Translations under genes and position numbers: made by a program
Notes under the pieces: model-generated
Seen by the model: only the letters and a program-made list of their open reading frames with translations
Database searches by the model: none
Told to the model about the DNA's origin: nothing
Shown here: positions 12,094 to 63,302 of the stretch, piece after piece
How positions within the stretch are numbered: the first letter of the stretch is position 1
Layout: each line of letters begins with the position of its first letter
Origin: Naegleria gruberi
Lineage: Eukaryota
Assembly (NCBI GenBank): GCA_000004985.1
Contig: GG738855.1
Length of the DNA stretch: 64,000 bases
Direction: 5' to 3' (one strand)

Positions 12094-12522
12094 TTTTTAA
12101 TAATTTAAAATTTTCAAATAACTATTTTGAAAATCTACCAATATTTTCACATGGTGCATGTGCTGAGAATGTTAATATTGCTGATATTTGAATAATTTAA
12201 TTTTATTAAGGAATTTGTAAAATTTTATTAAAAATAATTAAATATTCGTTTTTAAAAGAAAAGGAGAAAATTAAGAAATAAACCCTTAACTCCTTATCTT
12301 ACACAACAAAACAATCAAAATAAACACTATTAATATTGATAATACTAATAATATATCCAGATGAAAAAGAAGAACTTTTAATATCCATTTTTGAACCTTT
12401 CCAATCTTTATGAACAAAAACAGGCTCCAAAATAAATTTTTAGAAAACTAGTCGCACAAAATGCCGACCTTAAAATATCCAAATAAGCGCAGTAAATTTG
12501 TATAAAATAAAATCATAAAAAA

Positions 12523-26058: not shown

Positions 26059-29000
26059 TTATGCAACATTCTTTGCCTTCTTCATTCTGGCTCGTATGAA
26101 AAGTGCAATCACAACAGCAAGAAGAACACCAGCAACGCACACGACAACTACTCCACCAACTGATGAGGCTACTACAGCAATTAACACTGTGTTGTCGTTC
26201 ACTAGGATTGGTTCTGAGTTTTCTGGTTCTCTTCCCTTTGTGTTTGCCTTTTTATAGTTTTGGTCAATTACTGCAAAGGAAGTCAAGTGACTAGTTCTGC
26301 AACTCATTGAAAAAGTAACAATATTTGAGGAGGGAGAAAATTTCAAATCATTAATTGTCGTTTCTATGCCGTCTGTCTTCCACTCCTTGTCTGAATTATC
26401 AAAAAACATGCAGGTGAAATTTAATAACGCATTTGTATCTTTGGCAGTTGACAAATTGGAGAAGTACAATTCGATAGGTTCTTCCAGGTCAACTATTGGA
26501 ATTTTCTCATCATTGATATTGAACATGGAAATTGTTACCACTGAACTAATTGCATAAGCTTCCTCACTTGAAGGACCACTTGAAGAAGAAACTGAGCTAA
26601 TCACCTTTACCACCTCAGTTGAATTAAATCCTCTTTCATTGATAAGATAATCTTTCACTGCTGTAGGAAAATTGACTGTTACTGAACTTCCAAACTTTGT
26701 GAACGTGATATTCTGGTTATTAACCTCTTTTAACGAATAAATCAATTCTTTCGTCTCAATATTTCCATTTTGTCCACCACATTTGAAGGTGTTATTGACC
26801 AATTCTAAAGTTCCAATACAGTAAGGAGTGGTACAATTTCTACCAATCCATCCTTCCTTACAAATGCAATTATCAGGTCCAATACATGTTCCTTGATTAC
26901 AAACTCTTTGATCAATCGAAGGAATTCCAAAACAAATTGGAACAGAACAGTCCGAACCAGTATAATTGGCATTTCAGAGACAAGTATTTAATCCAACACA
27001 CGAACCATGTGAAGAACAAACTGCCTCATTATTTTCTGGTATTTCATTACATGAAACCATTTGACATTCCGAGCCAAAATACCCAACCTCACATTTACAA
27101 ATGTTGAATGATTGGCATGAGCCCTTTCCTCTGCAAACTGATGAAGAATTACTTGATTTTCCATAGCAAGATGTGAAATTACATTGAGGACCTGAATAAC
27201 CTTCCTTACAAAGACACGAATCCTTATTGAAACAAGTTCCGTGTGAAGAGCAAGCAGTCAACTCATTCTTTCCAATACCAAAACAATAGAACTGATCACA
27301 TTGGTTACCATAATAACCTAATTTACAAGTGCAGGAATTAGGCGAAGAGCAAATTCCATTTGATGAACAAGTAGAAACGTTTCTATTAGAAAGTCCAAAA
27401 CAAATTGGAATGTCACATGCAACACCAGTGAAATTTGCATTACATTCACAAGTATTGACATTGACACATGAGCCATTTCTAAAATTACAAACTGAAGAGT
27501 CAGTGGATGGGATTGAAAAACAAAGAGGAAGTTGACATGAATTTCCTGTAAAATTTGGATCACATTTGCAAGTGTTCAATTCTGTACAATTTCCATTTCC
27601 AGAACAAACTGAACTATTCGAATTCTTCAAACCAAAACAATAGAAATTTTCACAATTATTACCAAAATAACCTGAATTGCAGTCACAAGTATTGAACCCG
27701 CTGCATTTTCCTCTTCCTGAGCAAACATTAGTTTCATTATTTCGAATTCCATAACAGGAAGTCAACTCACAATTAGATCCTTCATAGAACTCATTACAAA
27801 TACACTTATTAGGTGAAACACACGTTCCTTTCCCACTACAAACTTTAGAATTGATGGCAACAATACCATTACACATTTGAATATCACATTCTGGTCCTCC
27901 ATATCTATTCGAAAGTGAACAGTTACATGTATTATATCCTACACATGTTCCATTTCTATTACAAACGTTTGGATCATTAGAAAGTTTCCCAAAACATACT
28001 GGAAAGCAAGGAGAAGGTGTTCCATCATCATTACAAACTAATCTATGAAATTTCTTAATGGAAGTTCCATCAATGAATAGAAATTGATTATTATCTATCA
28101 TTGTAATACCCATTATGCTTTTTAGAGTTGGAATAGTTCCATCTGGAAGAATAGCTTTTCCTCCAATACCAACAAGTGTTGAGATTATTCCATTGTCAGG
28201 AGAAACCATACGAATCCTTGAATTGTCTGTATCTGCCACATATAAAGTGCCATCTGGAGCCAAAACTGCCGAATGTGCTCTATTTATCGATGCACTATAT
28301 AATTGTTAAAAGAAACATGTATTCGATTTAGACTAAAGTGATGTTAACTTACCTTTTAGCTGGACCGCCATCTCCACTAAATGAAAATGATCCACTCCCA
28401 TCTCCAACCAATGTTGAGATAATATCTGTCGCTTTGCTAACAACTCGTATAGCTCCACTGAAAGTGTCAGCAATCACCAAATCATCTTTTTCACTCAATG
28501 AAATTCCATAACTGAAATCGATTTGAGTTTGAGAGCCAACTACTTGACCATCCCCAGAATAACCTCTTGTTCCACCAATATAGGTATATATAAAACCTGT
28601 TGTTGGTTTGATATTTCTAATTCTGGCATTATTGGTATCAAGAATGTAGACTAAACCAGAGGTATTACTGTAAGCAACAGAGTAAGGGGTGTCAAGTTTA
28701 GCTGCAATGGCTAGCTCTCCATCTCCAGTAAATCCTGCTGATCCAGTTCCTGCAATAGTTGAAATAAACCCATTAGAAACCTTTCGAATTCTATTGTTAT
28801 AAGAATCTGCAATATAAACATCACCTTTGAATGGATCTACAGAAACACCTCTTGGGAAATACAACTTTGCATTGATTGCCAGCACTCCATCTCCAGAAAA
28901 CCCTCCACTTCCAGTTCCGGCTATGGTTGTAATCGTACCATTCAATTAATCTTTCGAATTTTGTGAGCATTTGCATCTGCAATATATAATCTCACCATTA

Positions 29001-30839: not shown

Positions 30840-33773
30840 TTGTTGAACCACATCAAAAAAATATTCGAAACATGAATCGCACCAACACGCTTTCGTTTCT
30901 TCTTCTTCTGACATTATCCATTCTTCTTTTAACACTTTCGCGTATCCATGCAGCCATCAAAACTTCATCAATTCTTGCCTTTGGCTATAATCATAGATGG
31001 TAAATTCGGTCAGACACCAAATTTTGGTCAAAAATTACCTGTCAGACATTTGACTCTCGAACAGATATTGTTCAACTCTACTGAATCCATCAAAAAAGCA
31101 AAGATATCATCTAGTAACTTACCAGATAGTCTTCTTCCAGTGTTATCGCATGTGAGTGGAAGTAAACAAGGAGGAAATTTTGTGTTTCATGTCAAGTATA
31201 TGAATAATGGTCAATTTGTGAATCAGACAGTGTTTTCATGTGGGAAAATGGGAAAGTTAACACCTCTAGTACCTATTTCGTCAACGCCGATGCCATCTTA
31301 TGGATTTGTGAGTGAAGGAGTTTCGAATTATGGAGACGAAAGATTGGTCAATCAAGAAATTATTAGTTTAAATTGCAAATATTCTTGTATTGCTGTAACT
31401 AATCAAGGATTATTATTCATCAAGTGGCACAATGAAACTAGTTGGAAATTAGTAGAGTTGCCATCAACCTTCACAAATCCATCAAATTATGAAAATGTCA
31501 ATTTGAGAATTTCACAAGCAGTCATTGGAGTTTCCTTAACTGAAGGATCTAACATTGAAGAAACCTTCCTATTACTGACTGATTCTGGATTTGTTTTGAG
31601 TTTTGGATATTGTAATAGTGGTTTGAGAGGTGATTCAACAAGTGCAACAGATTCTCTTTCGTCTAATTCATTCTATACCTTTACTACACTTTCAAATATT
31701 AGCTCCATTGGAGTTGGACCAGGTATTGGCTATGCCATCAATAGCACTGGTCAATTACACGTGTGGGGAAACAATCAAAATGGAATTCTAGGCGATCCTG
31801 ACCCAAATCTCATTCTTTCAACTCCAAAACATTTGGAATTTAATTGTTTCATGAAGAAATTGTCATTTGGTGAGAGTTTTTGTTTATATTTGTGTCAGGA
31901 TGGAAGAGTTTTTGGTAATGGACAAGATGCTGAAGGTGAAATATCAGCAGCACCTGGATCAATTATTTACACTCCTGTGGAAATTACTAGCTCGTTATCT
32001 GCTACATTTAATAGTGATATGATTATTGACATTTCGACTAGTGAAAAAACCAGTTTGGCTCTCACATCAACTGGTAAGATAGCAACATGGGGAGATGATA
32101 GTCAGCTCGCATTTGGAAGAGAAGGAAATGGTGGATACACAATTCCAGCAACATTTAGTTCTCTAAATATTGTAAAGGCATTTTTTGTTTACAATATTGG
32201 AATTGCAATTACAAATACCAATGAAACTTATTATTGGGGATCTAATAGTGCTGGAGAAGCATGTTTGGGTGATTTGTGGTTTGCTGCCAAGCCAACTGTC
32301 ATTCCAACATTGTCAGATGTTTCACAAACACATGTCAATGAAATTTATTTAAGAGCTGCTTGTGGAATGATGCTATCCACAGATGGTATCACCAGTTCTA
32401 ATATCACATACTGGGGGAAATGTAGTTCTGGATTGGATGGTCAATATGTTGATCCAACAGTCGCAGTTTCTGCCACAACCTTTGACAACTCACTTTTTAA
32501 TAATGAAATTCTCAAAAAGTTTGCTCTGTTTAGAGGAACAGCTGTTGTTAACTCTATTTCTGGGAACAGTTATGGATGGGGAGAAGGTAGAGATTATCAA
32601 TTGGGAGATGATTCAAGTCATCCTGTTCCATTAGCACTATCAGTGAATGTTACTGATATTTTTAGCTCTAATCAATTTACAATTTTGGTTAAAAACGATG
32701 GTGGTGTTTATGGATTGGGGACTGTATCTAGCTCTGGAGCATTTGGTTCGTCCGTGCAAATGTTAACCACACTCACAAAATTGGACACTGATTACGTGAC
32801 AAGTGATGGAAGCTCTGTAATTCAAGTTAAAGCTCTAGAAGGTATATCATATCTATTGACATCAAGTGGAAAGGTCTATGGTGCTGGATCCAATGCAAAT
32901 CAACTCATTATTAACAATTCCACAACCAAATTCGAAAACTTTGTAAGAATTAGTGGAGATGATTTACCAGATAATCACAGAATTCGAAAGATTATTGTCT
33001 TTCCAAATTCTCCACTAATATTTATTACCTATGAAGGAGATGCTTATTATGTCTATCAAGGTATTCACAAGTTTCAGCTCCCAAATTCAAACGATTCATT
33101 TGTAATTCATGCATCTTCAAATTATTTGAATTTCTATGTTATTACAAAGAAAGGAAATGTTTACGCTATGGGAACAACTAATGAATTTATGGAAATTTCT
33201 CAAAATCCAATGGTTTCAAGTTTGAATAACATGACATTGTATGCAACAAAGGAATCTCTTGGTGGTGTGCCTTACTTTATTTCCCCTGAAACCAATTTAG
33301 CCATTTTGGCCATCTCTAATGGATGGACATGTAATGGAACAGCCTCTACCAGTGATTCTGTTTGTAATGGACATGGAGCATGTGTCGATCAGGATGTATG
33401 TGCCTGTAAAGAAAATTATGATGGATCCTATTGTGAAAAGTTCACTTGTGGCGGAATTTCCAATGAGGATACAACCACTGTTTGTTCTGGAACAGGAAGT
33501 TGCACATCATTTGACACATGTGTTTGTAAACAAGGATATAGTGGAGCAAATTGTGAAATTCCTTCTTGCTTTGGAGTAGCAAGTAGCAACACTGGAATTG
33601 TATGTAGTGGAAGAGGTCAATGTATGGGATTAGATAAATGCAGTTGCATGACTGGATATTTTGGATCCAAGTGCGAATACAAGGCATGTTATTTTGAAAG
33701 TATAAGCGCCGGTACAGGAGCTATTCTATCAATCAAGAACAAGCTTTGTAGAGATATCAATAAATATCTTTAA
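30840..33773 (+). CDS. Secreted protein with RCC1-like beta-propeller repeats and C-terminal tenascin-like EGF repeats
   Basis: The signal peptide MNRTNTLSFLLLLTLSILLLTLS… is in one frame and the mature protein is in the next frame. The ORF track starts the ORF at 30948. The apparent 1-nt frameshift is near 30990. It has RCC1-like units (HVWGNNQNGILGD, TWGDDSQLAFGREGNGG, YYWGSNSAGEACLGD, GWGEGRDYQLGDD). Its C-terminus is CNGHGACVDQDVCACKENYDGSYCE…CSGRGQCMGLDKCSCMTGYFGSKCE. Confidence 0.7.
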
Positions 33774-34379: not shown

Positions 34380-35982
34380 TTGACAACAACTCCTTTTGAA
34401 ATGACACAAGACCCACAACCAACATCTCAGCCAACTACTATCTCTACAAGTAATGACAAGCTCCATCCACCATCAACATCAACAACACAACTCCATCATC
34501 CAACAGAGAGCCATACTAAAAAAGATGCAGATAACGAATCCAATAAATCATCTACTAAGAGCAGTTTCAGAAGAAAGCAAAAACAACGAGGCTGCTTATG
34601 TTTCCGAGGAGGGAAAGCAATTAAAGTGAACACTTGTTGTGGTGTTTTGGAATTGTCTTGGATCAAAGTATTGGCCATTGTTGGTATGGCTCTTAATTCC
34701 TTCACATTTCTTGTATTATTGGCCTTGTTAATTTTCAGTCAAAACTCAAATGCAGCCACTAATATTGATCTCTTAGCAATAAGAAGTGATTTATATCTGT
34801 ATACAGCTTGGGTGGATGCTTATACACTTGTTGCTGCCTATTCCCAAAATAAGACCTATTTGAACTATTACTACAATTACCGTGATACCCTTAACACCTT
34901 GAAAGATGAACTTGTTTCAAAATTACCCTCCACTCTAGTGTCTCAACTCAATTCAACAGAAAGTTATCAATATTCTACATATTTAGAAGCTGCTGATACC
35001 CTGGCTGTGAATATGATGGAGAATGGAAACTATTCGGGTGCTGTTTCTGTACTCACATCTGGATTCTACTATGCTACAAAGTTAAAATATAGAAATTTGC
35101 TGGATATTATTCTCAAATATATTCTGGATTCGCAAACAGAGGCAGAAAATTTATCGGATGCAGCTGTCATTTCTTCACTGGTCATTATAATGTGTAGCTG
35201 TTGCAGTGACAGTCCCTGCCATTCTGTTCATCTTTGCATTCGCTATCAATAGAGAAGCATTAATGGCACAAAGATATAAAAAGGCAAGAGCTGTTGAATT
35301 GATGGATACAATGAGTAATGAAAAATTGAGAGCTCTCTTCCAAAAACACTGTATTAAGGAATTGAATAATGAAAACTTTGAATTTTTGGAAAAAGTTAAT
35401 GAATATAAGAGATTGGTAGAACATCAAATTGAGTTGGTTCAATTATTGAGTGATGGAGATTCAATCCATTCCAATGAATTAACTCAATCTAGTTCCAATG
35501 TCTCAAGTAGTCAAATAAGTGCTGCCGAAGAACCCACTACAGCCAATACAAACACCAACAATTCATCAGATTCTAAAAAGAAGAAGCATACAATGACATC
35601 AGTCAAGTCCATTTCTGATTTGGAAAATGAGTTGGAAGAAATTGAAGGAAAAAAGTTTGCACTTGCCACTGAAATTTACAATAACTTCCTCGATTTGAAA
35701 GGACCAAAGACTGTCAACACCACCAAATCCCATGCTGATAAGGTAAAGATTGAATTGGAGTATTTCAAGAGCAAGCAAATTCATTCCTTGTCCGATGATT
35801 TGTTCACATCTTTGGAGAGTGAAATTTCCATAGTCCTTCTCGATTCACATTATAGATTTAAAGAATCGATGGAATTTTTGAAGGAAATGAGAGTGAAGAG
35901 AATTAAAGATATCAATGAAAAGAAGAAGATTAAATCCAATCAACACCACGATCAACACCATCATCACAATAATGGACATTAA
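34380..35982 (+). CDS. Two-TM membrane protein with a cytosolic RGS domain
   Basis: ORFs 34380-35252 and 35206-35982 overlap in different frames within one hydrophobic helix (…AAVISSLVIIM | VAVTVPAILFIFAFAI…). The shift lies at an atgtgt(gt) dinucleotide run. The downstream RGS domain reads …LRALFQKHCIKELNNENFEFLEKVNEYKRL…ATEIYNNFLDLKGPKTVN…. Confidence 0.65.
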
Positions 35983-36200: not shown

Positions 36201-36959
36201 ATGTTATCATCACACAACAATCATTATCAACCAACTCTGAGGGTGAGAAACATCTCATCCGATGATTTTGAACATGAGCAACATCCACCACATCATCACG
36301 ATGAAGAAGAATTGGAAATGAGAACAACAGGAGAGCCTCCACACTTTTTAAAAGATAATTTCGATTATGCACACTTTGAAAAATTGGCTCTTAGTAATGT
36401 GGGATTAAAACACGATGAGCATGATGATCACTCGGAGGGACACTACTTGGAGAGATCTTATGTGAGCAAGGGTGGTCTGGTGGTGAATATTCCACAACAA
36501 CAAGAGGATGGAAATAATAACGGAAATGGAGAAACACTGGTAGCCTTTCAAGAACATTCTGACGATGAACAACAACAGCAATTCTCAAGTAAATTACCAA
36601 AGGTACCACTTCTTAAGGAGATGAATAATACATCAACTGCTGCTGGAAATCATGATAATATTACGAACAAGCCAGGAAGACACTACTTTGCACCAGTGGA
36701 AGCAACACGAGAGGAAAAGTTAGCGTACGTGAAGAAGGTAGCAAGAACCTTGTTCATGATCTTTCTTGTTATTCTCATGAGTGCTATGGTAGTCATTGAT
36801 TACATCTCCAATCCAAAGAATACCTGGGTGATTAGGTTGAGTATTTTCGTGTCGATGGTCATCTTGTGGAGGTTTCTGTATGAATACCTCTTTGAAATTA
36901 TATTTGAGTGGATATTGGAGTATCTTGTTTACAAGGAGAAGAAGCAAACCTCTGTCTAA
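36201..36959 (+). CDS. Hypothetical His/Glu-rich protein with a C-terminal pair of TM helices
   Basis: 252-aa ORF with an acidic, His-rich N-terminus. Its C-terminus reads …LFMIFLVILMSAMVVIDYI…IRLSIFVSMVILWRFLYEYLFEIIFEWILEYLVY. Confidence 0.5.
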   Translation: MLSSHNNHYQPTLRVRNISSDDFEHEQHPPHHHDEEELEMRTTGEPPHFLKDNFDYAHFEKLALSNVGLKHDEHDDHSEGHYLERSYVSKGGLVVNIPQQQEDGNNNGNGETLVAFQEHSDDEQQQQFSSKLPKVPLLKEMNNTSTAAGNHDNITNKPGRHYFAPVEATREEKLAYVKKVARTLFMIFLVILMSAMVVIDYISNPKNTWVIRLSIFVSMVILWRFLYEYLFEIIFEWILEYLVYKEKKQTSV

Positions 36960-37134: not shown

Positions 37135-40100
37135 ATGCCGTCATTCCTCTCCAAGGGCAACAAACAACAACAGAGGGCCAGATCTTCTTCATCATCCAGT
37201 TACTACAACAGCCGAAATAAACATGATGGTGAATTACGTTTTCATGATGATGACGATGATATTGACAATTTCTTGGAACCTTCACATGACGTTCAACAAC
37301 ATCACGAAGCGGAATCAAAGAGAAAAAGTATTACTCTTGCAGCACAATCAGTACCTGCCATAGTTTCAAATTCTGTTATTGGATGGCTTTCTGCTGTATC
37401 ACTCGTTGTTCACTTGATAGTTTTAATAGCTTTTATTGCACTACCTCTCTTTTTAATATTTATTCATTTTGATTTTTGTTTCAAATGTGGAGGAGCAGAG
37501 TTTTTAATAATATTTCTGATGAGTTTGTTTGGAGTGGGATTACTCTTGTTTGGAATGCTGTATCCTCTCCGACAATATATTATTGAAAGGAGGAAACAAT
37601 CAAAGTTAACACAAGAAGATATCATACAACAACAATTGGAAGCACCTCTAGAAGATATGGAAGATGGTGAACATGGTATTGATTTTGATGAATATCATCA
37701 TGATAATCAATTTGATGATGCACCAGCGGATCGTGGTTTGACAAGTGGAAAAATTTCAATCTCCCTCGCTAGAGCAAATAGTAATTCTGGTTGGTTTAAG
37801 AGATTTTTCGATATTTCAGAGTTTTTAAAAACAAGTAAGAAGGAAAAGGCTGCATGTTGTGTTTTCTCTACTTGTAGTATTGCTTCCTTCATTTGGTTGG
37901 CAGTCACAATCATTGTATTTTTAACATTTATTTTCTTTGTGAGGTCAACTAGAGTTAACAAATCTGGACACATTTATTCATCAGTTATTTCTGGTAAAAA
38001 GGTTAGGATTGAGAGAGAACCTACAGGTATGGTTCACGTTGCTGCTGAAAATATTAATGACCTTGCTTTTGGTCAAGGTGTTGCTGCTGCTCAAGACAGA
38101 CTCTTCCAAATGGAACTCTACAAGATTATTGGTAAAGGCTCATTGGCAGAGATTGTTGGTTCGGATGCTCTCATTTTGGACAAGCTTTCACACGTTCTAG
38201 GTTTAAGAAAGTATGCTGAGGAGAATTTAGCAAATATTCCAAAGGATATAGTTTCTATTATTCAATCCTATGTTGACGGTATTAATGCATATATTGAATC
38301 AGGTCCTGCTCTGAGTGCAGAATTTTCTCTTGTTGGTTTCAAACCAACTAAATGGGAAGTTATTGACGTTTTGACATTTGAGAAATTATTTGCCTTACAA
38401 ATGACTTACAACTACATTTTTGAATTGGCAAGATTAGTTGTTTTGGAGAGAGGTGCTACATTGGAGAGAGTAACAGAGCTTTCATCACCAATGTATGCTA
38501 ATTATTTCACAGTTTTCAATAGGGAAGAATTAAAGATGAATATCACTGATGAGGAGGCTGAAGAAATTGAGAAAAAGTTGTGGGATCAATCAGGTGCTTA
38601 TATTCCATCTTCCACAAATTCTGGTGACGAACATGTTCATAATTTTGGAGAAATGCTGTATGAGAAGCTATCAAATGACAAGTACCTCAAATTACTTTTA
38701 CCAACCAAGAAGGGAAGTAGCAGAGGTTCAAATAATTGGGTTGTCGGCAAGAGTATTTCCGATTCCTCAAGTGGTTACAATGTTAACGATCCTCATTTGG
38801 ATATTATGGCTCCCGTTATTGTTCAACAAATTCACTTAAAGATTGTTAAGGATATTACTGCTGTTAATGATATTACATCAGTCAAGATGGAAGAGAATAC
38901 ATTTGAATTGATTGGAGCAAGTTTCCCTGGATTACCAAGTGTTGGTATTGGTAGATCAGCTTTTATTTCTTGGAGTATTACCTTGTCTTTTAGTGATGTT
39001 CAGGATTTGTATGTATTGACTCCATGTCCTGATCAACCAGACACTCACTACATGGTAGATGGTAAACCAGAAGAATACAAGATTAGAAAGGTTAATATCA
39101 AGGTTGCTGGTGAAGAGAATGTGGAATTGGTAGTTAAAGAAAGTAGATTCGGTCCTGTTATTAATGACCCATTGATTACCATTGCTCATGCAGATGTAAA
39201 GACTCAAAAGCCAATGGCTCTCAAATGGACTGCTCACTTACCAAATGATACTTCTATTATGGGTCTGCAACAAATGACTAATGCAAAGACTATGGATGAG
39301 TTCGCCAAGGCTACAAGGTTACTCACAGCTTTACCTTTTAGCATTGTTTTCACTGATAGAAATGGTAATATTGGTTATTCGTTGACAGGTACAACACCAA
39401 TTAGACAACAAGGACATACTGGCATGTTTGCAATGCCTGGTGATATTTCCAAATATGAATACAAGGGATACGCCACTGGTGATCAAATAACAGTTATTAA
39501 TCCACCAAAGGGTTATATTATTACAGCCAACAACAGAATCACACCTGGTGGATTCCCTTATATTGTTAGCAACGATAACGAATTTGATTATAGAGCTAAA
39601 AGAATTGATGAAATGATTAGAAATGTTTTAGATGTAGAAAATAGAAAGATCACACAAAAAGACATGATAGAGGCACAAAATGATGTAAAGAGTTTGATCT
39701 ATGAAGAGCTCAAGTTTGTACTCAGAAATATTTCTCAATCACTCAAGGAAGATCCATATGCCAAATATGTTAATGGTTTGCTCAATGATTGGGACGGAAA
39801 GATTCTTAGAGAATCTACTCATGCCACTTTATTTGAATTTTTCCTTACAAATCTTATCAAATTACCTGAGCATGAAGTCGGAAAGAAGTACTGGAATGAT
39901 TTCTTCTATCTAAGAAGAGCTTTATCCAGTAATGGCGATATTGCTTGCACAGTCCACAGAAAGCAAACTTGTCAAGAGTTTGCAGTGGCCACTTTTAAGG
40001 AAACTGTTGACATTTTATTGAAACACTTTGGACAAATTCCTCCTTGGAAAGTTGTTCACTATATTGATGCATCCCATCCATTATTGGGATTGACACCACT

Positions 40101-40437
40101 TTCTTGTTTATCTGACAGAAAGATTCACTCCAATGGTGGCACATACACTGTGAATATCAACAATTTTGTCTATGATAAGGTTACTGAAACAACTATTCCA
40201 ACTGTAAATGCAGCAGTTTATAGACAAATTATTGGTGGAGGTGAATTCTCTAATTCTAAAATTGAAGGACAAGATGATTTATGGATCTCACCACTTGGAC
40301 AAGATGGAAATATGTTTTCAGAACACTATGACAACTTTATTGAAAAGTATATTGAGGGATCCTATCTCCCACTCACCACTGAGGCCAAGTACTTGTCTGA
40401 CGTTTTTGAAATTCTTCCAACAGAAAAGTCGGATTAA
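37135..40437 (+). CDS. Penicillin amidase / acyl-homoserine-lactone acylase family Ntn-hydrolase with an N-terminal low-complexity plus TM extension
   Basis: 1100-aa ORF. The predicted autoproteolytic N-terminal nucleophile lies in …KKGSSRGSNNWVVGKS…NDPHLD…. These are the SNxW and NDPHL motifs of PGA/PvdQ-type acylases. The ~300-aa N-terminal region has two hydrophobic helices. Confidence 0.8.
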   Translation: MPSFLSKGNKQQQRARSSSSSSYYNSRNKHDGELRFHDDDDDIDNFLEPSHDVQQHHEAESKRKSITLAAQSVPAIVSNSVIGWLSAVSLVVHLIVLIAFIALPLFLIFIHFDFCFKCGGAEFLIIFLMSLFGVGLLLFGMLYPLRQYIIERRKQSKLTQEDIIQQQLEAPLEDMEDGEHGIDFDEYHHDNQFDDAPADRGLTSGKISISLARANSNSGWFKRFFDISEFLKTSKKEKAACCVFSTCSIASFIWLAVTIIVFLTFIFFVRSTRVNKSGHIYSSVISGKKVRIEREPTGMVHVAAENINDLAFGQGVAAAQDRLFQMELYKIIGKGSLAEIVGSDALILDKLSHVLGLRKYAEENLANIPKDIVSIIQSYVDGINAYIESGPALSAEFSLVGFKPTKWEVIDVLTFEKLFALQMTYNYIFELARLVVLERGATLERVTELSSPMYANYFTVFNREELKMNITDEEAEEIEKKLWDQSGAYIPSSTNSGDEHVHNFGEMLYEKLSNDKYLKLLLPTKKGSSRGSNNWVVGKSISDSSSGYNVNDPHLDIMAPVIVQQIHLKIVKDITAVNDITSVKMEENTFELIGASFPGLPSVGIGRSAFISWSITLSFSDVQDLYVLTPCPDQPDTHYMVDGKPEEYKIRKVNIKVAGEENVELVVKESRFGPVINDPLITIAHADVKTQKPMALKWTAHLPNDTSIMGLQQMTNAKTMDEFAKATRLLTALPFSIVFTDRNGNIGYSLTGTTPIRQQGHTGMFAMPGDISKYEYKGYATGDQITVINPPKGYIITANNRITPGGFPYIVSNDNEFDYRAKRIDEMIRNVLDVENRKITQKDMIEAQNDVKSLIYEELKFVLRNISQSLKEDPYAKYVNGLLNDWDGKILRESTHATLFEFFLTNLIKLPEHEVGKKYWNDFFYLRRALSSNGDIACTVHRKQTCQEFAVATFKETVDILLKHFGQIPPWKVVHYIDASHPLLGLTPLSCLSDRKIHSNGGTYTVNINNFVYDKVTETTIPTVNAAVYRQIIGGGEFSNSKIEGQDDLWISPLGQDGNMFSEHYDNFIEKYIEGSYLPLTTEAKYLSDVFEILPTEKSD

Positions 40438-41238: not shown

Positions 41239-43462
41239 ATGCATTCATTATCGGCAATATTCATCCTACTTTTTTACACTATTCTATTCGCAAGGAATTT
41301 ACAGTTCTTTTACTTGTTTTCACATTTCATCAACCGATGCAAAAGTTTGCTCTTCTCGAGGGTCATGCCTTTCTACCAACAATTGCACATGTTCTACAGG
41401 TTTCTACGGAAGTAATTGTCAGTGGAGTGATGATCCAATACTAAACGAACCTACTTTGGATTTATTTGGTTTAGGAATTGGAATTGTTAGACGAAATGTT
41501 TCGAATCCAACCTATGATTTGATGATTTCTGCAACTAAATTAACTTTTCTTGATTCTAAATTGAGAGAATTGATGGGATGTTCATTGGAAAGTGAAAATT
41601 GTTATTCTGTAATTGAATTTAAATGGTCAATTAGTATGAATGCAATTAGTTTGGATTCTTCTAATGGATTTGTGATGGCAAATTTATCCCAAGTTGATGT
41701 ATTGACATTTTCTCCAGTCATTCAATTTCAAAGTAGCAAAGGTTTGATTTCTGGCAGTCAGTTGATTACTTCTATTGAACTAAAGACGAAATATTCTAAC
41801 GTTAACATGAGTACTAAAGGATGTACTCTAANAAGGAACATCACATTGGAAATTGAAAATACAGTAACTTGTCTCTGTTCACACACAACCATGTTCTCTA
41901 CCTTTATTGAACATAACAGTACATTTGCTGTCAAAGTCAAACAACAGCTGTCAACGCTATATTATGCTCAAATAGCTTTTGGTGTATTCTATTTTATCAT
42001 TTCCTTAATAATATTAATTCTATTATTTGCTTTTAGAAAGGAACAACCAATTTCAAGTAGATTAGCAACTCCATTTATGGGAATGATAGCCCTATTGGTA
42101 GAAAGTTGTTTAATTTACATTACTCAGAGAGGAATTTTAGTGAATCAACTGAAATCTAGTAATAATCAAATGTGGGAGAGTGGAGATAATGATTCCAATA
42201 TTATTGCAAATATTGTTACAATTTTTGTAAACTCTTTAAATTTAACAGCAATATTTTGCTATGTTATTCAAGTGGTTAGATTTGAATTGATGAAATTCAT
42301 GTACAAATTAATTCACAAGACGAAAGGAAATGAGTCTAAAAGTGATATAGTATTGAAATCTATTAGAATATCAACATCAACAAGTTTATTCTTACTCTTG
42401 ACAACTTTATTTATGAGTTTTAATCTGGTTTATTGGACAATTTGGGTTGTTTTGAGACGAATTAATGTAATTGAGCCTTCAACTTACACTTACATTGTTT
42501 CCATTTCGTATACTGTCATAATATTCTTCTTGAGTTTAGTAATTGCAACTGTATTAGTATTCGATTTTATTATAACAATTAAAGAAAAGAAAGAAGAGAA
42601 GAAGAATGAGCCCACAGATTCAACAGTGAAAGAAAATCTGGTAAAGAAATCAATCAAGATGAAGAATTCACTCTCAAAGGTTTATGATTTTTTCATTAGT
42701 TTAGATGAGCCACTCTATTTCAGAGTCGAAATGATTCTCTACCTAATATGTTTCGTATTTCTAATAGTGAATCAAGTGATTGGACTCATTGGATTACCAT
42801 ATCGATTCATAGACGAGGAAAATTACAAGACAGCTCTCCAATATGATGTAATTTCATTTATATTTGAAGTTTTATACGTTTTCACCTATATTCTAGTATT
42901 TGGTGGATATGCTTTGTTGATCCTACTCATTTACAAAGTAAAGATTTGGAGAAAATTTTCAAAGAATGGAAAATCAAAGCAGGATGATGGAATGTTGAAG
43001 AATAAGGAACTTTTACTTGTGATTAGGAATGAGGAATCGTACGAATCATTTGAAAAGTTTTGTGAAAAGGAATTTTCCTTAGAGAATCTTTATTTACATT
43101 CAATATTGGAAAAACATTCAAAAATAGTGAATGGAGAGACATTTGAAGGGTTATCAACTCTACTTAATCAAATATTTGAAGGATTCATCCAATCAGGAGC
43201 AACAAATGAAGTGAATATTCCAAACAGTTGTAGAACAAAGATTGTCAACCTCCACAAAAAATATGGTTTTGAAAAGAAGGATTCAGATTTAAAGAATGTT
43301 GATTTAGAAGAAGTGAGACAGGCATTCTTTTCATTAGTTCAACAAGTATTTGTCAATCTTGGTGACACCTTCTCTCGATATTCTCTAACAACTGAATGGA
43401 AAGTTTTCAAAAAGGCAATTGAATTGAAAGAACACATTACGGAGAAAGCAAACTTGTATTAG
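41239..43462 (+). CDS. Adhesion-GPCR-like receptor: signal peptide, tenascin-like EGF, GPS/GAIN-like motif, 7TM and a C-terminal RGS domain
   Basis: The signal peptide MHSLSAIFILLFYTILFA is in one frame. The reading frame then shifts by +1 into …TDAKVCSSRGSCLSTNNCTCSTGFYGSNCQ… and continues into ORF 41456-43462. A GPS-like motif (…VTCLCSHTTMFSTFIE) lies just before seven hydrophobic helices. The C-terminal RGS domain reads …ESYESFEKFCEKEFSLENLYLHSILEKH…AFFSLVQQVF…. One N sits at 41832. Confidence 0.65.
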
Positions 43463-60020: not shown

Positions 60021-60404
60021 AGGGTTTGGGTTTGGGTTGGGTTGGGTTTGGGGTTGGGGTTGTGTTGGGGGGTTGGGGGTTTGGGTTTGGGTTTGGGTTT
60101 GGGTTTGGGTTTGGGTTTGGGTTTGGGTTTGGGTTTGGGTTTGGGTTTGGGTTTGGGTTTGGGTTTGGGTTTGGGTTTGGGTTTGGGTTTGGGTTTGGGT
60201 TTGGGTTTGGGTTTGGGTTTGGGTTTGGGTTTGGGTTTGGGTTTGGGTTTGGGTTTGGGTTTGGGTTTGGGTTTGGGTTTGGGTTTGGGTTTGGGTTGGG
60301 TTGGGTTTGGGTTTGGGTTTGGGTTTGGGTTTGGGTTTGGGTTTGGGTTTGGGTTTGGGTTTGGGTTTGGGTTTGGGTTTGGGTTTGGGTTTGGGTTTGG
60401 GTTT
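60021..60404. repeat. (GGGTTT)n telomere-like array, about 60 units; degenerate at the left and perfect toward the N-gap
   Basis: The sequence reads agggtttgggtttgggttgggttgggtttggggttgggg… and then becomes perfect gggttt hexamers up to the gap at 60405. Confidence 0.85.
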
Positions 60405-63302
60405 NNNNNNNNNNNNNNNNNNNNNNNNNNNNNNNNNNNNNNNNNNNNNNNNNNNNNNNNNNNNNNNNNNNNNNNNNNNNNNNNNNNNNNNNNNNNNNNN
60501 NNNNNNNNNNNNNNNNNNNNNNNNNNNNNNNNNNNNNNNNNNNNNNNNNNNNNNNNNNNNNNNNNNNNNNNNNNNNNNNNNNNNNNNNNNNNNNNNNNNN
60601 NNNNNNNNNNNNNNNNNNNNNNNNNNNNNNNNNNNNNNNNNNNNNNNNNNNNNNNNNNNNNNNNNNNNNNNNNNNNNNNNNNNNNNNNNNNNNNNNNNNN
60701 NNNNNNNNNNNNNNNNNNNNNNNNNNNNNNNNNNNNNNNNNNNNNNNNNNNNNNNNNNNNNNNNNNNNNNNNNNNNNNNNNNNNNNNNNNNNNNNNNNNN
60801 NNNNNNNNNNNNNNNNNNNNNNNNNNNNNNNNNNNNNNNNNNNNNNNNNNNNNNNNNNNNNNNNNNNNNNNNNNNNNNNNNNNNNNNNNNNNNNNNNNNN
60901 NNNNNNNNNNNNNNNNNNNNNNNNNNNNNNNNNNNNNNNNNNNNNNNNNNNNNNNNNNNNNNNNNNNNNNNNNNNNNNNNNNNNNNNNNNNNNNNNNNNN
61001 NNNNNNNNNNNNNNNNNNNNNNNNNNNNNNNNNNNNNNNNNNNNNNNNNNNNNNNNNNNNNNNNNNNNNNNNNNNNNNNNNNNNNNNNNNNNNNNNNNNN
61101 NNNNNNNNNNNNNNNNNNNNNNNNNNNNNNNNNNNNNNNNNNNNNNNNNNNNNNNNNNNNNNNNNNNNNNNNNNNNNNNNNNNNNNNNNNNNNNNNNNNN
61201 NNNNNNNNNNNNNNNNNNNNNNNNNNNNNNNNNNNNNNNNNNNNNNNNNNNNNNNNNNNNNNNNNNNNNNNNNNNNNNNNNNNNNNNNNNNNNNNNNNNN
61301 NNNNNNNNNNNNNNNNNNNNNNNNNNNNNNNNNNNNNNNNNNNNNNNNNNNNNNNNNNNNNNNNNNNNNNNNNNNNNNNNNNNNNNNNNNNNNNNNNNNN
61401 NNNNNNNNNNNNNNNNNNNNNNNNNNNNNNNNNNNNNNNNNNNNNNNNNNNNNNNNNNNNNNNNNNNNNNNNNNNNNNNNNNNNNNNNNNNNNNNNNNNN
61501 NNNNNNNNNNNNNNNNNNNNNNNNNNNNNNNNNNNNNNNNNNNNNNNNNNNNNNNNNNNNNNNNNNNNNNNNNNNNNNNNNNNNNNNNNNNNNNNNNNNN
61601 NNNNNNNNNNNNNNNNNNNNNNNNNNNNNNNNNNNNNNNNNNNNNNNNNNNNNNNNNNNNNNNNNNNNNNNNNNNNNNNNNNNNNNNNNNNNNNNNNNNN
61701 NNNNNNNNNNNNNNNNNNNNNNNNNNNNNNNNNNNNNNNNNNNNNNNNNNNNNNNNNNNNNNNNNNNNNNNNNNNNNNNNNNNNNNNNNNNNNNNNNNNN
61801 NNNNNNNNNNNNNNNNNNNNNNNNNNNNNNNNNNNNNNNNNNNNNNNNNNNNNNNNNNNNNNNNNNNNNNNNNNNNNNNNNNNNNNNNNNNNNNNNNNNN
61901 NNNNNNNNNNNNNNNNNNNNNNNNNNNNNNNNNNNNNNNNNNNNNNNNNNNNNNNNNNNNNNNNNNNNNNNNNNNNNNNNNNNNNNNNNNNNNNNNNNNN
62001 NNNNNNNNNNNNNNNNNNNNNNNNNNNNNNNNNNNNNNNNNNNNNNNNNNNNNNNNNNNNNNNNNNNNNNNNNNNNNNNNNNNNNNNNNNNNNNNNNNNN
62101 NNNNNNNNNNNNNNNNNNNNNNNNNNNNNNNNNNNNNNNNNNNNNNNNNNNNNNNNNNNNNNNNNNNNNNNNNNNNNNNNNNNNNNNNNNNNNNNNNNNN
62201 NNNNNNNNNNNNNNNNNNNNNNNNNNNNNNNNNNNNNNNNNNNNNNNNNNNNNNNNNNNNNNNNNNNNNNNNNNNNNNNNNNNNNNNNNNNNNNNNNNNN
62301 NNNNNNNNNNNNNNNNNNNNNNNNNNNNNNNNNNNNNNNNNNNNNNNNNNNNNNNNNNNNNNNNNNNNNNNNNNNNNNNNNNNNNNNNNNNNNNNNNNNN
62401 NNNNNNNNNNNNNNNNNNNNNNNNNNNNNNNNNNNNNNNNNNNNNNNNNNNNNNNNNNNNNNNNNNNNNNNNNNNNNNNNNNNNNNNNNNNNNNNNNNNN
62501 NNNNNNNNNNNNNNNNNNNNNNNNNNNNNNNNNNNNNNNNNNNNNNNNNNNNNNNNNNNNNNNNNNNNNNNNNNNNNNNNNNNNNNNNNNNNNNNNNNNN
62601 NNNNNNNNNNNNNNNNNNNNNNNNNNNNNNNNNNNNNNNNNNNNNNNNNNNNNNNNNNNNNNNNNNNNNNNNNNNNNNNNNNNNNNNNNNNNNNNNNNNN
62701 NNNNNNNNNNNNNNNNNNNNNNNNNNNNNNNNNNNNNNNNNNNNNNNNNNNNNNNNNNNNNNNNNNNNNNNNNNNNNNNNNNNNNNNNNNNNNNNNNNNN
62801 NNNNNNNNNNNNNNNNNNNNNNNNNNNNNNNNNNNNNNNNNNNNNNNNNNNNNNNNNNNNNNNNNNNNNNNNNNNNNNNNNNNNNNNNNNNNNNNNNNNN
62901 NNNNNNNNNNNNNNNNNNNNNNNNNNNNNNNNNNNNNNNNNNNNNNNNNNNNNNNNNNNNNNNNNNNNNNNNNNNNNNNNNNNNNNNNNNNNNNNNNNNN
63001 NNNNNNNNNNNNNNNNNNNNNNNNNNNNNNNNNNNNNNNNNNNNNNNNNNNNNNNNNNNNNNNNNNNNNNNNNNNNNNNNNNNNNNNNNNNNNNNNNNNN
63101 NNNNNNNNNNNNNNNNNNNNNNNNNNNNNNNNNNNNNNNNNNNTNGAGAAAGTTACTGAGGGAAAGATCACAAACTTTAGAATAATGTTTATTAGAACCT
63201 AAATTGTACTATTTGGAAATTAGAAGAAATTGGAATAATTGAATGGAATGAGAAAGAGAAAGAAAAATATCAAGAAACCAACTTATCATGACTAAATATT
63301 GA

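What the first reader, a model, noticed from the sequence alone, without database searches (positions are those of the whole stretch)
37135..40437. Bacterial-type penicillin-G-acylase / AHL-acylase family Ntn-hydrolase with a eukaryotic-style N-terminal TM extension
The enzyme core has the GSNNW nucleophile and NDPHL motifs. This family is overwhelmingly bacterial, so in an amoeba it suggests horizontal acquisition. It could act on N-acyl-homoserine lactones or other amides, for example in a bacterivore's interaction with prey quorum signals. A ~300-aa low-complexity N-terminal region with two TM helices has been added to the bacterial core.
Basis: partly seen in the sequence, partly recalled or inferred. 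Interest (0 to 1): 0.5.

Follow-up and report, generated by a model that had tools for sequence, protein, structure and literature searches.

The report
Membrane-anchored amoebal penicillin-acylase-family amidase
This is the already-annotated Naegleria gruberi "penicillin amidase" gene, an intact self-cleaving amidase of bacterial ancestry; it is one of at least three copies in this amoeba and belongs to a previously undescribed family of amoeba enzymes that share a three-helix membrane anchor, so it is an old, domesticated gene and not a recent bacterial import.

Summary
The ORF at 37135-40437 (+) is real and is 100% identical to N. gruberi XP_002680022.1 "penicillin amidase". It matches Pfam PF01804 at E = 1.6e-160. 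The catalytic set is conserved: Ser532 in GSNNW, His554 in NDPHL, Asn799, Arg823 and Asp621/624. The model matches D-succinylase at TM 0.85.

Two details need correcting. There are three TM helices, not two. The N-terminal region is a conserved module, not merely low-complexity sequence.

The gene is not a lone or recent transfer. An exhaustive search found about 50 protein clusters sharing the same plan: a TM1-Cys loop-TM2 hairpin, a cytosolic linker, TM3, then the acylase. Named members include two more N. gruberi paralogues, N. fowleri, N. lovaniensis, Willaertia and Balamuthia (Amoebozoa). This eukaryotic group is sister to a small bacterial group that includes Meiothermus. Codon usage is native.

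Best reading: a polytopic, lumen- or surface-facing, self-processing N-acyl amidase with unknown substrate. The AHL idea is untested, and the PvdQ equivalog model fails (59.6 bits against a cutoff of 950).

New lead: a family-specific Cys991 co-varies with the hairpin-loop Cys, which suggests a disulfide tether for the catalytic chain.

The parts
37135..40437 (+). Complete intronless CDS (1100 aa plus TAA), identical to N. gruberi XP_002680022.1 / D2V7M8 'penicillin amidase'
   Evidence: exact identity to P0103
37135..37383 (+). Cytosolic N-terminal tail (res 1-83). It starts with a low-complexity Ser/Gln/Asp stretch, followed by the conserved D-x-D-x-FLEP...H-x-E-x-E..RKS-x-T motif (res 46-67, 37270-37335)
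   Evidence: alignment of four orthologues; pLDDT <50 for residues 1-50
37384..37464 (+). TM1 (res 84-110)
   Evidence: Kyte-Doolittle peak of 3.04; AlphaFold helix 81-110
37465..37497 (+). Short extracytosolic loop HFDFCFKCGGA (res 111-121) with Cys115 and Cys118. A loop Cys is conserved in 36 of 39 family members
   Evidence: low K+R content in the loop across the family
37498..37572 (+). TM2 (res 122-146), ending in the conserved P-x-RQYI motif
37573..37848 (+). Cytosolic, variable, acidic low-complexity linker (res 147-238). It is basic at both membrane-proximal ends
   Evidence: pLDDT <50 for residues 170-226; positive-inside statistics
37849..37947 (+). TM3 (res 239-271), preceded on the cytosolic side by the Cys cluster C241/C242/C247. 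TM3 is positionally equivalent to the single signal anchor of the bacterial relatives
   Evidence: helix 234-271, pLDDT 78-94; the Meiothermus anchor and the family's TM3 are both followed by T-L-P-x-x-x-G
37948..38499 (+). Acylase alpha-chain region (res 272 to about 455; the C-terminal boundary is approximate)
   Evidence: Pfam match starts at residue 289; PDB alpha-subunit matches cover residues 286-446; pLDDT >90
38500..38727 (+). Spacer/linker region (res about 456-531; approximate) ending in ...KKGSSRG just before the nucleophile. It holds the family-conserved L-T-x-E-E...D-x-SGAYIP motif
   Evidence: lower pLDDT in this stretch; A5 consensus
38728..40434 (+). Beta-chain region (res 532-1100), starting at the predicted N-terminal nucleophile Ser532 (codon 38728-38730). 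Key residues: His554 (38794-38796), Asp621/Asp624 (38995-38997, 39004-39006), Asn799 (39529-39531), Arg823 (39601-39603), the Cys938-Cys946 pair, and the family-specific Cys991 (40105-40107)
   Evidence: Ser532 is invariant in 59/59 and 229/229 aligned sequences; H554, D621, D624, N799 and R823 are conserved in at least 224 of 229; E. coli PGA beta chain residue 1 aligns to query residue 532; codon positions checked

Best explanation
The gene encodes a polytopic membrane protein. Its large C-terminal domain is an S45 (penicillin-acylase-family) N-terminal-nucleophile amidohydrolase that faces the lumen of the endomembrane or phagosomal system, or the cell exterior. Predicted topology: N-terminus in the cytosol, TM1 out, a short Cys-containing loop outside, TM2 in, an acidic cytosolic linker, TM3 out, then the acylase domain outside. 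By analogy with all characterised S45 enzymes, the precursor should cleave itself between Gly531 and Ser532. That frees the Ser532 amino group as the catalytic base and nucleophile. The result is a membrane-anchored alpha chain (about 60 kDa including the spacer) and a 64-kDa beta chain. The mature enzyme would then hydrolyse an amide (N-acyl) bond in a small molecule, using Ser532, His554, Asn799 and Arg823. Evolutionarily it is one of at least three N. gruberi paralogues of an old eukaryotic family found in Heterolobosea, the amoebozoan Balamuthia and many uncultured eukaryotes. That family descends from a bacterial single-anchor acylase related to the Meiothermus group and gained the TM1-TM2 hairpin early. 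Shown here: gene integrity, domain, fold, conserved catalytic residues, TM segments, charge-bias topology, family membership and phylogenetic position. Inferred: autoproteolysis, enzymatic activity and cellular location. The substrate is unknown.
For: Identity and annotation. Domain: PF01804 at E = 1.6e-160. Fold: AlphaFold pTM 0.80 with pLDDT >90 over most of residues 270-1100; Foldseek against PDB gives D-succinylase 7eby at E = 1.9e-44 and TM 0.85, followed by cephalosporin acylases, MacQ, PGA and PvdQ. Catalytic residues: S532, N533, H554, D552, D621, D624, N799, R820 and R823 are conserved in at least 224 of 229 homologues. Topology: three hydrophobic helices. Across 38 family members, K+R averages 3.0 after TM2 against 0.66 in the loop, and 3.1 before TM3 against 1.3 after it, p about 5e-7. 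The Cys938-Cys946 pair, shared with about half of the periplasmic bacterial homologues, fits an oxidising compartment. Family: long 3-TM forms dominate the top 40-50 hits of the exhaustive search, with names and eukaryotic gene neighbours. The HMM built from non-heterolobosean long forms scores 706 bits against 530 bits for the bacterial HMM. Bootstrap support: 100% for long forms plus the Meiothermus group, 62% for long forms alone, 99.5% for the window gene with paralogue XP_002674471, 92.5% with Willaertia added. Native codon usage. Protein-level expression of the N. fowleri orthologue has been reported by MS in extracellular vesicles and in an immunogenic band (PMC9312180, PMC7350353).
Against: No biochemical data exist for any member of the eukaryotic family. 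The N. fowleri orthologue was identified in gel bands of about 140 kDa and about 100 kDa. The predicted sizes are 155.6 kDa for the precursor, 74 kDa for the alpha chain and 81.5 kDa for the beta chain. Efficient autoprocessing is therefore not evident, although these identifications are low-ranked and match only a fragment entry. Deep branches of the distance tree are weakly supported (62% and 58%). The in-group and out-group for the focused tree were chosen from the first tree, which inflates the 100% value. Only three lineages are named (Naegleria, Willaertia, Balamuthia); the rest are unnamed metagenome proteins judged eukaryotic from architecture and a few contexts. Topology rests on the positive-inside rule, not on experiment.
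Confidence: 0.75

Rival explanations
1. It is a quorum-quenching N-acyl-homoserine-lactone acylase that the bacterivorous amoeba uses on prey signals.
For: S45 enzymes include AHL acylases (PvdQ, MacQ), which appear among the structural matches. The enzyme has His at beta-23, as AHL and cephalosporin acylases do, where E. coli PGA has Gln (my own knowledge of PGA numbering; query His554). The domain is predicted to face the phagosome lumen or the outside, where prey molecules would be found. Some metagenome annotations name family members 'PvdQ', but these labels are automatic.
Against: The NCBIfam PvdQ equivalog scores 59.6 bits against a cutoff of 950. PvdQ is among the weakest PDB sequence matches (E = 1e-7, compared with 1.6e-43 for D-succinylase). 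No substrate-pocket analysis was possible. No literature links amoebal S45 enzymes to AHLs. Three diverged paralogues in one amoeba suggest several substrates.
Confidence: 0.2
2. It is a recent horizontal transfer from bacteria, or bacterial contamination in the assembly.
For: The family is overwhelmingly bacterial. The gene has no introns.
Against: The gene is flanked by eukaryotic genes with RCC1/EGF and RGS domains. GC, GC3 and codon usage match the neighbours. The best bacterial identity is only 33%. Orthologues exist in three independently sequenced Naegleria species and paralogues lie on other N. gruberi scaffolds. The protein carries eukaryote-type low-complexity inserts and a polytopic anchor.
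Confidence: 0.02
3. It is a catalytically inactive or unprocessed membrane protein that has been co-opted for binding or another structural or receptor role.
For: The N. fowleri orthologue was reported in a ~140 kDa gel band, close to the 155.6 kDa precursor and far from the 74 and 81.5 kDa chains. The W. magna homologue is transcribed at a low level (PMC7285305).
Against: Every catalytic and calcium-site residue is conserved across about 47 diverged family members. That pattern indicates purifying selection on catalysis. A loop-to-beta-chain disulfide would also keep the chains together under incomplete reduction.
Confidence: 0.1
4. The eukaryotic members arose by several independent bacterial transfers, or by eukaryote-to-eukaryote transfer among amoebae that share habitats, and not by vertical descent from one early acquisition.
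For: Only amoeboid lineages from two supergroups are named. Balamuthia is 45.8% identical to Meiothermus but only 33.6% identical to Naegleria. Deep nodes are weak. Anaeramoeba carries a separate single-anchor S45 lineage that prefers the bacterial HMM. A diplonemid acquisition by HGT has been reported (bioRxiv 10.64898/2026.01.29.702485).
Against: The 2+1 TM architecture, the loop Cys and Cys991 are shared across the long forms and absent from the bacterial sister group. This favours one origin of the architecture. Transfer between eukaryotes after that origin is not excluded. No viral vector was found.
Confidence: 0.35

Closest known systems
N. gruberi XP_002680022.1 / UniProt D2V7M8 'penicillin amidase', and N. 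fowleri Q25548 'penicillin amidase homolog (fragment)'
   Same: It is the same gene, 100% identical. The N. fowleri orthologue has been in databases for decades and has been seen by MS.
   Different: No paper I could find describes the membrane architecture, the paralogues, the catalytic-site status or the phylogeny. In the held literature it appears only as a name in tables.
D-succinylase (DSA) of Cupriavidus sp. P4-10-C (PDB 7eby/7ea4)
   Same: It is the best solved-structure match by sequence (E = 1.6e-43) and by fold (TM 0.85, 22% identity). It has the same G|SNNW nucleophile context and the same NDPH motif.
   Different: It is a soluble periplasmic bacterial enzyme with no TM hairpin. At 22% identity the substrate cannot be transferred.
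Bacterial single-anchor 'penicillin acylase family' proteins of the Meiothermus group (L001 ORF 2806-5190, P0160)
   Same: They are the closest prokaryotic relatives: 33-37% identical to the window protein and 46% to the Balamuthia member. They share the T-L-P-x-x-x-G motif after the anchor and, in some members (3 of 6, Meiothermus included), the Cys938/Cys946 pair. With the eukaryotic family they form a 100%-supported group.
   Different: They have one N-terminal hydrophobic segment only, with no hairpin, no cytosolic linker and no Cys991.
E. coli penicillin G acylase (PDB 1gk9 etc.) and the glutaryl-7-ACA / cephalosporin acylases
   Same: Same Pfam family and alpha-beta-beta-alpha Ntn fold. 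The beta-chain Ser1 aligns with Ser532. The equivalents of Asn-beta241 and Arg-beta263 and the calcium-site aspartates are conserved.
   Different: Identity is 18-21%. The query has His554 and Leu555 at beta-23/24, where PGA has Gln and Phe (my own knowledge). That resembles cephalosporin and AHL acylases more than PGA. The name 'penicillin amidase' therefore marks the family and is not evidence for that substrate.
AHL acylases PvdQ and MacQ
   Same: Same superfamily and mechanism. Both are recovered by Foldseek with probability 1.0.
   Different: The PvdQ equivalog HMM fails by a wide margin (59.6 against 950 bits). TM to MacQ and PvdQ is about 0.69-0.71, and identity is 15-18%.

Membership tests
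Peptidase family S45 / Pfam PF01804 (penicillin amidase family) | Full-length match to the family HMM above the curated threshold | tested here: met
   536.8 bits against a cutoff of 21.3, profile positions 1-670 of 675
Peptidase family S45 / Pfam PF01804 | Ntn-hydrolase alpha-beta-beta-alpha fold | tested here: met
   AlphaFold pTM 0.80; Foldseek against PDB gives TM 0.85 to 7eby, and 82 PDB chains match at E <= 1e-3, all 50 rows listed being S45 acylases
Peptidase family S45 / Pfam PF01804 | Nucleophilic Ser at the first position of the beta chain, preceded by Gly (the autoproteolytic site) | tested here: met
   G531-S532 in GSNNW. S532 is invariant in 229 of 229 homologues and aligns to residue 1 of the E. 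coli PGA beta chain
Peptidase family S45 / Pfam PF01804 | Oxyanion-hole and supporting residues (equivalents of His/Gln beta-23, Asn beta-241, Arg beta-263) and the calcium-site aspartates | tested here: met
   H554, N799, R823, D621 and D624 are conserved in at least 224 of 229 sequences. Mapping to PGA numbering comes from the alignment plus my own knowledge
Peptidase family S45 / Pfam PF01804 | Autoproteolytic maturation into alpha and beta chains | not testable with these tools
   Published gel-band sizes for the N. fowleri orthologue (about 140 and about 100 kDa) are inconclusive
Bifunctional acylase PvdQ (NCBIfam NF051460 equivalog) / AHL acylase | Score above the equivalog cutoff | tested here: not met
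   59.6 bits against a cutoff of 950, and only a partial match covering residues 529-747
AHL acylase (functional class) | Hydrolysis of the N-acyl bond of AHLs | not testable with these tools
No supporting literature was found
Penicillin G acylase sensu stricto (EC 3.5.1.11) | Close similarity to PGA and the PGA-type pocket (Gln beta-23 / Phe beta-24) | tested here: not met
   18-19% identity to PGA beta chains. The query has His554/Leu555 at these positions (PGA residues from my own knowledge)
Eukaryotic hairpin-anchored S45 family (defined here) | 2+1 TM architecture in front of the acylase domain | tested here: met
   47 representative clusters with complete domains share it
Eukaryotic hairpin-anchored S45 family (defined here) | Cys in the TM1-TM2 loop together with Cys at position 991 | tested here: met
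   C115/C118 and C991 are present. Family counts: 35 with both, 3 with neither, 1 and 0 mixed
Eukaryotic hairpin-anchored S45 family (defined here) | Phylogenetic placement inside the clade | tested here: met
   HMM preference of +176 bits. NJ bootstraps of 100%, 99.5% and 92.5% for the nested Naegleria/Willaertia groups and 62% for the whole eukaryotic set

The most novel reading that the evidence does not exclude
The TM1-TM2 hairpin is a purpose-built tether. Its extracytosolic loop cysteine (Cys115 or Cys118) forms a disulfide with the family-specific Cys991 of the beta chain. After self-cleavage at Gly531|Ser532, the alpha chain stays covalently fixed to the membrane through TM3 and the catalytic beta chain through the disulfide to the hairpin. 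This would define a previously undescribed class of surface or phagosomal amidases. The class is shared by amoebae of two eukaryotic supergroups, including the brain-infecting Naegleria fowleri and Balamuthia, and probably acts on bacterial N-acyl compounds.
Probability: 0.25. Interest if true: 0.55.

Novelty: new variant of a known kind. Interest (0 to 1): 0.38.

Why it matters
The gene itself is ordinary and already annotated. "Penicillin amidase" genes in Naegleria, Willaertia and Balamuthia are not isolated bacterial imports. They are members of one old, expanded eukaryotic subfamily of S45 Ntn-hydrolases with a distinctive three-helix anchor and a co-varying cysteine pair.

This matters in three ways:
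- It corrects the evolutionary reading, from a recent HGT in one amoeba to an ancient acquisition followed by a domain gain and duplications.
- It gives a concrete, testable structural hypothesis for how a two-chain self-cleaving enzyme is kept on a membrane.
- It points to a surface-exposed or vesicle-exposed enzyme family, apparently absent from animals, in the pathogens N. fowleri and B. mandrillaris. The N. fowleri orthologue has already been seen in immunogenic fractions and in extracellular vesicles.

The ecological idea that amoebae degrade bacterial N-acyl signals, lipopeptides or beta-lactams remains attractive but has no direct support.

Tried and rejected
1. Profile search for the N-terminal hairpin module across 5.8e9 proteins. 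It returned nothing, not even the four source proteins, so it is uninformative and I did not count it as evidence of uniqueness.
2. Word-indexed searches. They missed all the paralogues and long forms because only the 8000 candidates sharing most words are scored. From alone the gene looked like a Naegleria-only island next to bacteria. The exhaustive HMMER search overturned that.
3. First genome scan with the 59-sequence alignment. It failed for lack of a conserved stretch. A 10-sequence alignment worked.
4. Giant-virus vector idea, prompted by the ORFan-rich, F-box/TnpB context of P0185. IMG/VR scans gave no hit and BFVD gave no structural match. The neighbours carry Dicty_CTDC repeats, so the contig is more likely an unidentified GC-rich eukaryote. 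This is unresolved.
5. AlphaFold-database fold search for named eukaryotic homologues. The library was unavailable.
6. Iterating the hairpin HMM to reach Balamuthia. Controls stayed clean only for two rounds. From round 3 the reversed-sequence control produced hits, so I rejected the later inclusions. Homology of the hairpin beyond the Naegleria-proximal subclade rests on architecture only.
7. First NJ tree on 229 sequences. Deep nodes had 0-45% support, so I replaced it with the focused L-INS-i analysis.
8. Contamination or recent HGT. Rejected on context, composition and orthology.
Full report
**1. The observation**

Window positions 37135-40437 (+) hold one uninterrupted ORF of 1100 codons ending in TAA.
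- Its translation contains GSNNW at residues 531-535 and NDPHL at 551-555.
- It matches Pfam PF01804 (penicillin amidase) over residues 289-1084, covering profile positions 1-670 of 675, at E = 1.6e-160.

Two details need correcting.
- The region in front of the domain has three hydrophobic helices, not two: about 84-110, 122-146 and 239-271 by Kyte-Doolittle analysis, and helices 81-110, 116-156 and 234-271 in the AlphaFold model.
- It is not just low-complexity sequence. Among four orthologues there are 62 invariant columns. They include a D-x-D-x-FLEP...RKS-x-T motif, an H-x-x-FCF-x-CGGAEF loop between TM1 and TM2, P-x-RQYI after TM2, and S-T-x-x-x-KSG after TM3.
- Only the first ~45 residues and the acidic TM2-TM3 linker are low-complexity and variable.

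**2. Whose gene it is**

- The protein is 100% identical to XP_002680022.1 / D2V7M8, "penicillin amidase [Naegleria gruberi strain NEG-M]". The window is N. gruberi, an amoeboflagellate of the Heterolobosea, and the gene is already annotated.
- Orthologues exist in N. lovaniensis (C9374_009879), N. fowleri (FDP41_006504) and an unnamed environmental relative at 60% identity.
- Neighbouring ORFs are eukaryotic: RCC1/EGF, EGF-rich, and two RGS-domain membrane proteins.
- GC (0.359), GC3 (0.277) and synonymous codon usage (r = 0.94 with eight neighbouring ORFs) cannot be told apart from the neighbours. The extension and the core do not differ either.
- Contamination and recent transfer are excluded.

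What the literature held here says:
- A "penicillin amidase homolog (fragment)", Q25548, of N. fowleri is listed in two proteomic papers. One found it in a ~140 kDa band of extracellular vesicles and the other in a ~100 kDa immunogenic band (PMC9312180, PMC7350353).
- A 2026 preprint notes that the gene occurs in several protists and reports an HGT into the diplonemid Rhynchopus.
- I found no paper that describes the membrane architecture, the paralogues or the phylogeny.

**3. Is the enzyme intact?**

- In a 59-sequence alignment Ser532 is invariant, and N533, W535, D552, P553, H554, N799 and R823 are at least 90% conserved.
- In a 229-sequence alignment S532, N533, H554, D552, D621, D624, N799, R820 and R823 are conserved in at least 224 of 229 sequences, across both the eukaryote-type and the bacterial proteins.
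- Residue 1 of the E. coli PGA beta chain aligns with query residue 532. The PGA stretch "NWNN" aligns with "TANN" (N799/N800) and "ADR" with "AKR" (R823). These are the equivalents of Asn-beta241 and Arg-beta263; that numbering is from my own knowledge.
- D621 and D624 align with the calcium-site aspartates.
- The AlphaFold model (pTM 0.80; pLDDT >90 for 546 residues) matches D-succinylase 7eby at E = 1.9e-44 and TM 0.85. Cephalosporin acylases, MacQ, PGA and PvdQ follow.
Everything needed for an S45 Ntn-hydrolase is present.
- Position beta-23/24 is His-Leu, as in cephalosporin and AHL acylases, not the Gln-Phe of PGA. The database name "penicillin amidase" is a family label only.

**4. The gene is not alone**

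The word-indexed search suggested a Naegleria-only island whose next relatives were bacterial proteins at 27-28% identity. The exhaustive HMMER search of 1.84e9 representatives gave a different picture.
- It returned 13163 hits.
- Directly after the Naegleria orthologues come dozens of proteins at 30-41% identity (E from 1e-139 to about 1e-80). They are 900-1200 aa long, and their acylase domain begins 120-370 residues in.

Exact look-ups named some of them:
- two further N. gruberi proteins, XP_002674471.1 and XP_002671819.1;
- Willaertia magna KAL9645851.1;
- Balamuthia mandrillaris KAL6042778.1 and KAL6072646.1, which is an amoebozoan and therefore from a different eukaryotic supergroup.

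Context of the unnamed members:
- One lies on a 35-kb contig among Ist1, Dpy-30, PPR and PIG-X genes.
- Another lies among F-box and Dicty_CTDC-repeat genes.

Using HMMER domain coordinates, 47 complete representatives have an extension of at least 100 residues with at least two hydrophobic segments. The roughly 250 bacterial-type proteins have one segment (or none) directly in front of the domain.

**5. Shared architecture**

The extensions all follow one plan:
- TM1, then a loop of about 12 residues that almost always contains a Cys, then TM2;
- a linker of median length 74 residues, variable and often acidic;
- frequently Cys residues just before TM3;
- TM3, a T-L-P-x-x-x-G motif, then the acylase.

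The Meiothermus enzyme has the same T-L-P-x-x-x-G motif after its single anchor. TM3 therefore corresponds to the bacterial signal anchor, and what eukaryotes added is the hairpin plus linker.

An HMM built only from the four Naegleria-type orthologues detects the hairpin in other members.
- It finds P0113, P0112, P0124 and the paralogue P0125 at E about 1e-5 to 1e-7, against 1e-3 for the reversed-sequence control.
- A second round adds the paralogue P0110, P0115 and P0138, with controls still clean.
- From round 3 the control fails.
- Sequence homology of the hairpin is thus shown for the Naegleria-proximal subclade. For Balamuthia and the rest, the evidence is architecture and the conserved Cys.

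**6. Topology**

Across 38 members:

| Region | Mean K+R |
|---|---|
| 15 residues after TM2 | 3.0 |
| TM1-TM2 loop | 0.66 |
| 15 residues before TM3 | 3.1 |
| 15 residues after TM3 | 1.3 |

- Both comparisons give Wilcoxon p of about 1e-6 to 5e-7.
- By the positive-inside rule the N-tail and the linker are cytosolic. The loop and the acylase domain are extracytosolic.
- This matches the periplasmic location of the bacterial enzymes. It also fits the Cys938-Cys946 pair, which about half of the bacterial homologues share.

**7. Phylogeny**

- A first NJ tree (229 sequences, 705 columns) put 46 of the 47 long forms in one clade of 64, together with N-terminally truncated fragments and six short proteins including Meiothermus. 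Support was only 45% and the deep nodes were unresolved.
- A focused L-INS-i alignment used that clade plus the 30 nearest outside sequences (94 sequences, 719 columns, 200 bootstraps):

| Grouping | Bootstrap support |
|---|---|
| Long forms plus the Meiothermus group | 100% |
| Long forms alone | 62% |
| Meiothermus group | 58% |
| Four Naegleria-type orthologues | 100% |
| Orthologues plus paralogue XP_002674471 | 99.5% |
| The above plus Willaertia | 92.5% |
| Balamuthia with P0137 | 99.5% |

- An HMM built from the non-heterolobosean long forms scores the window domain at 706 bits, against 530 bits for an HMM of 66 named bacterial genomes.
- The Meiothermus group also prefers the eukaryotic HMM by about 90 bits. 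Anaeramoeba prefers the bacterial one.
- Balamuthia is 45.8% identical to Meiothermus. The heterolobosean sequences are simply more diverged.
- P0160, from the Meiothermus group, sits next to OEP genes and is therefore bacterial.

The most economical reading has four steps:
- A bacterial single-anchor acylase related to the Meiothermus group entered eukaryotes once.
- It acquired the hairpin.
- It then diversified by duplication, giving at least three copies in N. gruberi.
- It is now found in Heterolobosea, in at least one amoebozoan and in many uncultured eukaryotes.

Whether it spread by descent or by transfer between amoebae cannot be decided with distance trees and three named lineages.

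Caveats: these are distance methods, the in-group and out-group were chosen from the first tree, and support is moderate for the key node.

**8. An unexpected covariation**

- Cys991 ("LSC991LSDR") is present in 42 of 47 long forms, in 12 of 176 other homologues and in 0 of 6 of the Meiothermus group.
- Among the 39 long forms with three resolvable hydrophobic cores, the counts are:

| Cys991 | Loop Cys | Count |
|---|---|---|
| present | present | 35 |
| absent | absent | 3 (P0141, P0195, P0168) |
| absent | present | 1 |
| present | absent | 0 |

- The three members lacking both cysteines lie apart from one another: P0141 and P0195 in separate subclades of the tree, and P0168 outside the 64-member clade.
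- My hand-computed one-sided Fisher value is 4.4e-4, which ignores phylogeny.
- Both cysteines lie on the extracytosolic side (section 6).
- This suggests a disulfide between the hairpin loop and the beta chain. Such a bond would keep the catalytic chain covalently attached to the membrane after self-cleavage.
- This is inference. The tools return no model coordinates, so the geometry could not be checked.

**9. Function**

What can be said with evidence is that this is a membrane-tethered, extracytosolic, self-processing Ser-Ntn amidohydrolase. The substrate is unknown.
- The closest characterised enzyme, D-succinylase, is 22% identical.
- The PvdQ equivalog model fails (59.6 against 950 bits).
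- PvdQ and MacQ are only distant structural matches.
- No literature connects amoebal S45 enzymes with AHLs.

An N-acyl compound of bacterial origin (AHL, lipopeptide, acylated siderophore, beta-lactam) met at the surface or in phagosomes is a reasonable guess for a bacterivore. Three diverged paralogues suggest more than one substrate. I put AHL specificity at about 0.2.

The reported ~140 kDa band for the N. fowleri protein leaves processing open. The predicted sizes are 155.6 kDa for the precursor, and 74.2 and 81.5 kDa for the two chains.

**10. Verdict**

Bacterial ancestry and an added membrane module hold. "Horizontal acquisition in an amoeba" has to be replaced by membership of an old, expanded eukaryotic subfamily, and the AHL role is unsupported.
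- The gene itself is already known.
- The hairpin-anchored eukaryotic S45 subfamily and its co-varying cysteines appear to be undescribed, making this a new variant of a known kind. Interest is moderate.

Noticed in passing
window 60022-60404 (then gap 60405-63143): A 64-copy (GGGTTT)n array runs directly into an assembly gap of 2.7 kb. TTTGGG is the published candidate telomere repeat of N. gruberi (PMC3622300), and the G-rich strand points 3'-outwards as at a chromosome end. The acylase gene therefore lies about 19.6 kb from a telomere-like array, i.e. it is subtelomeric. About 850 bp of unrelated sequence follows the gap, and it has no inverted CCCAAA array. This suggests either a scaffold join across a chromosome end or an interstitial telomere tract.
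   Followed up: partly
window 34380-35982 (+) and 41456-43462 (+): The acylase gene is flanked on both sides by genes for multi-TM proteins with a C-terminal RGS domain (PF00615, E = 1e-6 to 3e-7). The upstream one is split over two overlapping ORFs (34380-35252 and 35206-35982), implying an intron or a frameshift. The downstream ORF contains an N base (position 41832).
   Followed up: partly
window 36201-36959 (+): A 252-aa ORF ends 175 bp upstream of the acylase start codon. It has no Pfam match, is His/Asp/Glu-rich at the N-terminus, and has two hydrophobic helices at the C-terminus. It looks like a separate small membrane-protein gene. Its GC3 (0.39) is the highest and its codon-usage correlation (0.81) the lowest of the nine ORFs compared.
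   Followed up: no
window 26974-28263 (-) and 30948-33773 (+): There is an EGF-repeat protein (teneurin-type EGF) and a protein that combines an RCC1-like beta-propeller with EGF repeats. This is an unusual domain combination, typical of the expanded Naegleria surface-protein repertoire.
   Followed up: no
window 7719-7801 (+): tRNA-Leu (anticodon TAA), the only tRNA gene found in the window.
   Followed up: no
L083 (JGI metagenome 3300076029, contig Ga0643523_0000049), gene at 10001-12871: A hairpin-anchored family member (P0185) lies on a >100 kb contig of 58-72% GC. The contig is densely packed with ORFans, an F-box protein, two large Dicty_CTDC-repeat proteins and a TnpB/Cas12f-like gene. 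It may be an unidentified GC-rich amoebozoan or a giant virus. No match was found in IMG/VR or BFVD.
   Followed up: partly
P0094 / P0108 (Anaeramoeba flamelloides KAJ3429975, KAJ6239118): A metamonad also carries an S45 'penicillin amidase' with a single N-terminal anchor. It retains the nucleophile Ser but prefers the bacterial HMM over the hairpin-family HMM (258 against 219 bits). It therefore looks like a separate eukaryotic lineage of the family.
   Followed up: partly
N. fowleri and N. lovaniensis orthologues (P0105, P0002) compared with window residues ~490-520, ~570-590, ~632 and ~1035: The orthologues in the other two Naegleria species carry long low-complexity inserts (Gln/Ser/Thr/His/Asn runs, up to about 70 aa) inside the spacer and in surface loops of the beta chain. 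These add 250-280 residues relative to N. gruberi. They may be real eukaryotic-type expansions or unrecognised introns in those gene models.
   Followed up: no
tool behaviour: A profile search with the TM-rich hairpin alignment returned no hit at all, not even the proteins it was built from. Negative results from that tool for TM-rich or short profiles should not be trusted.
   Followed up: no
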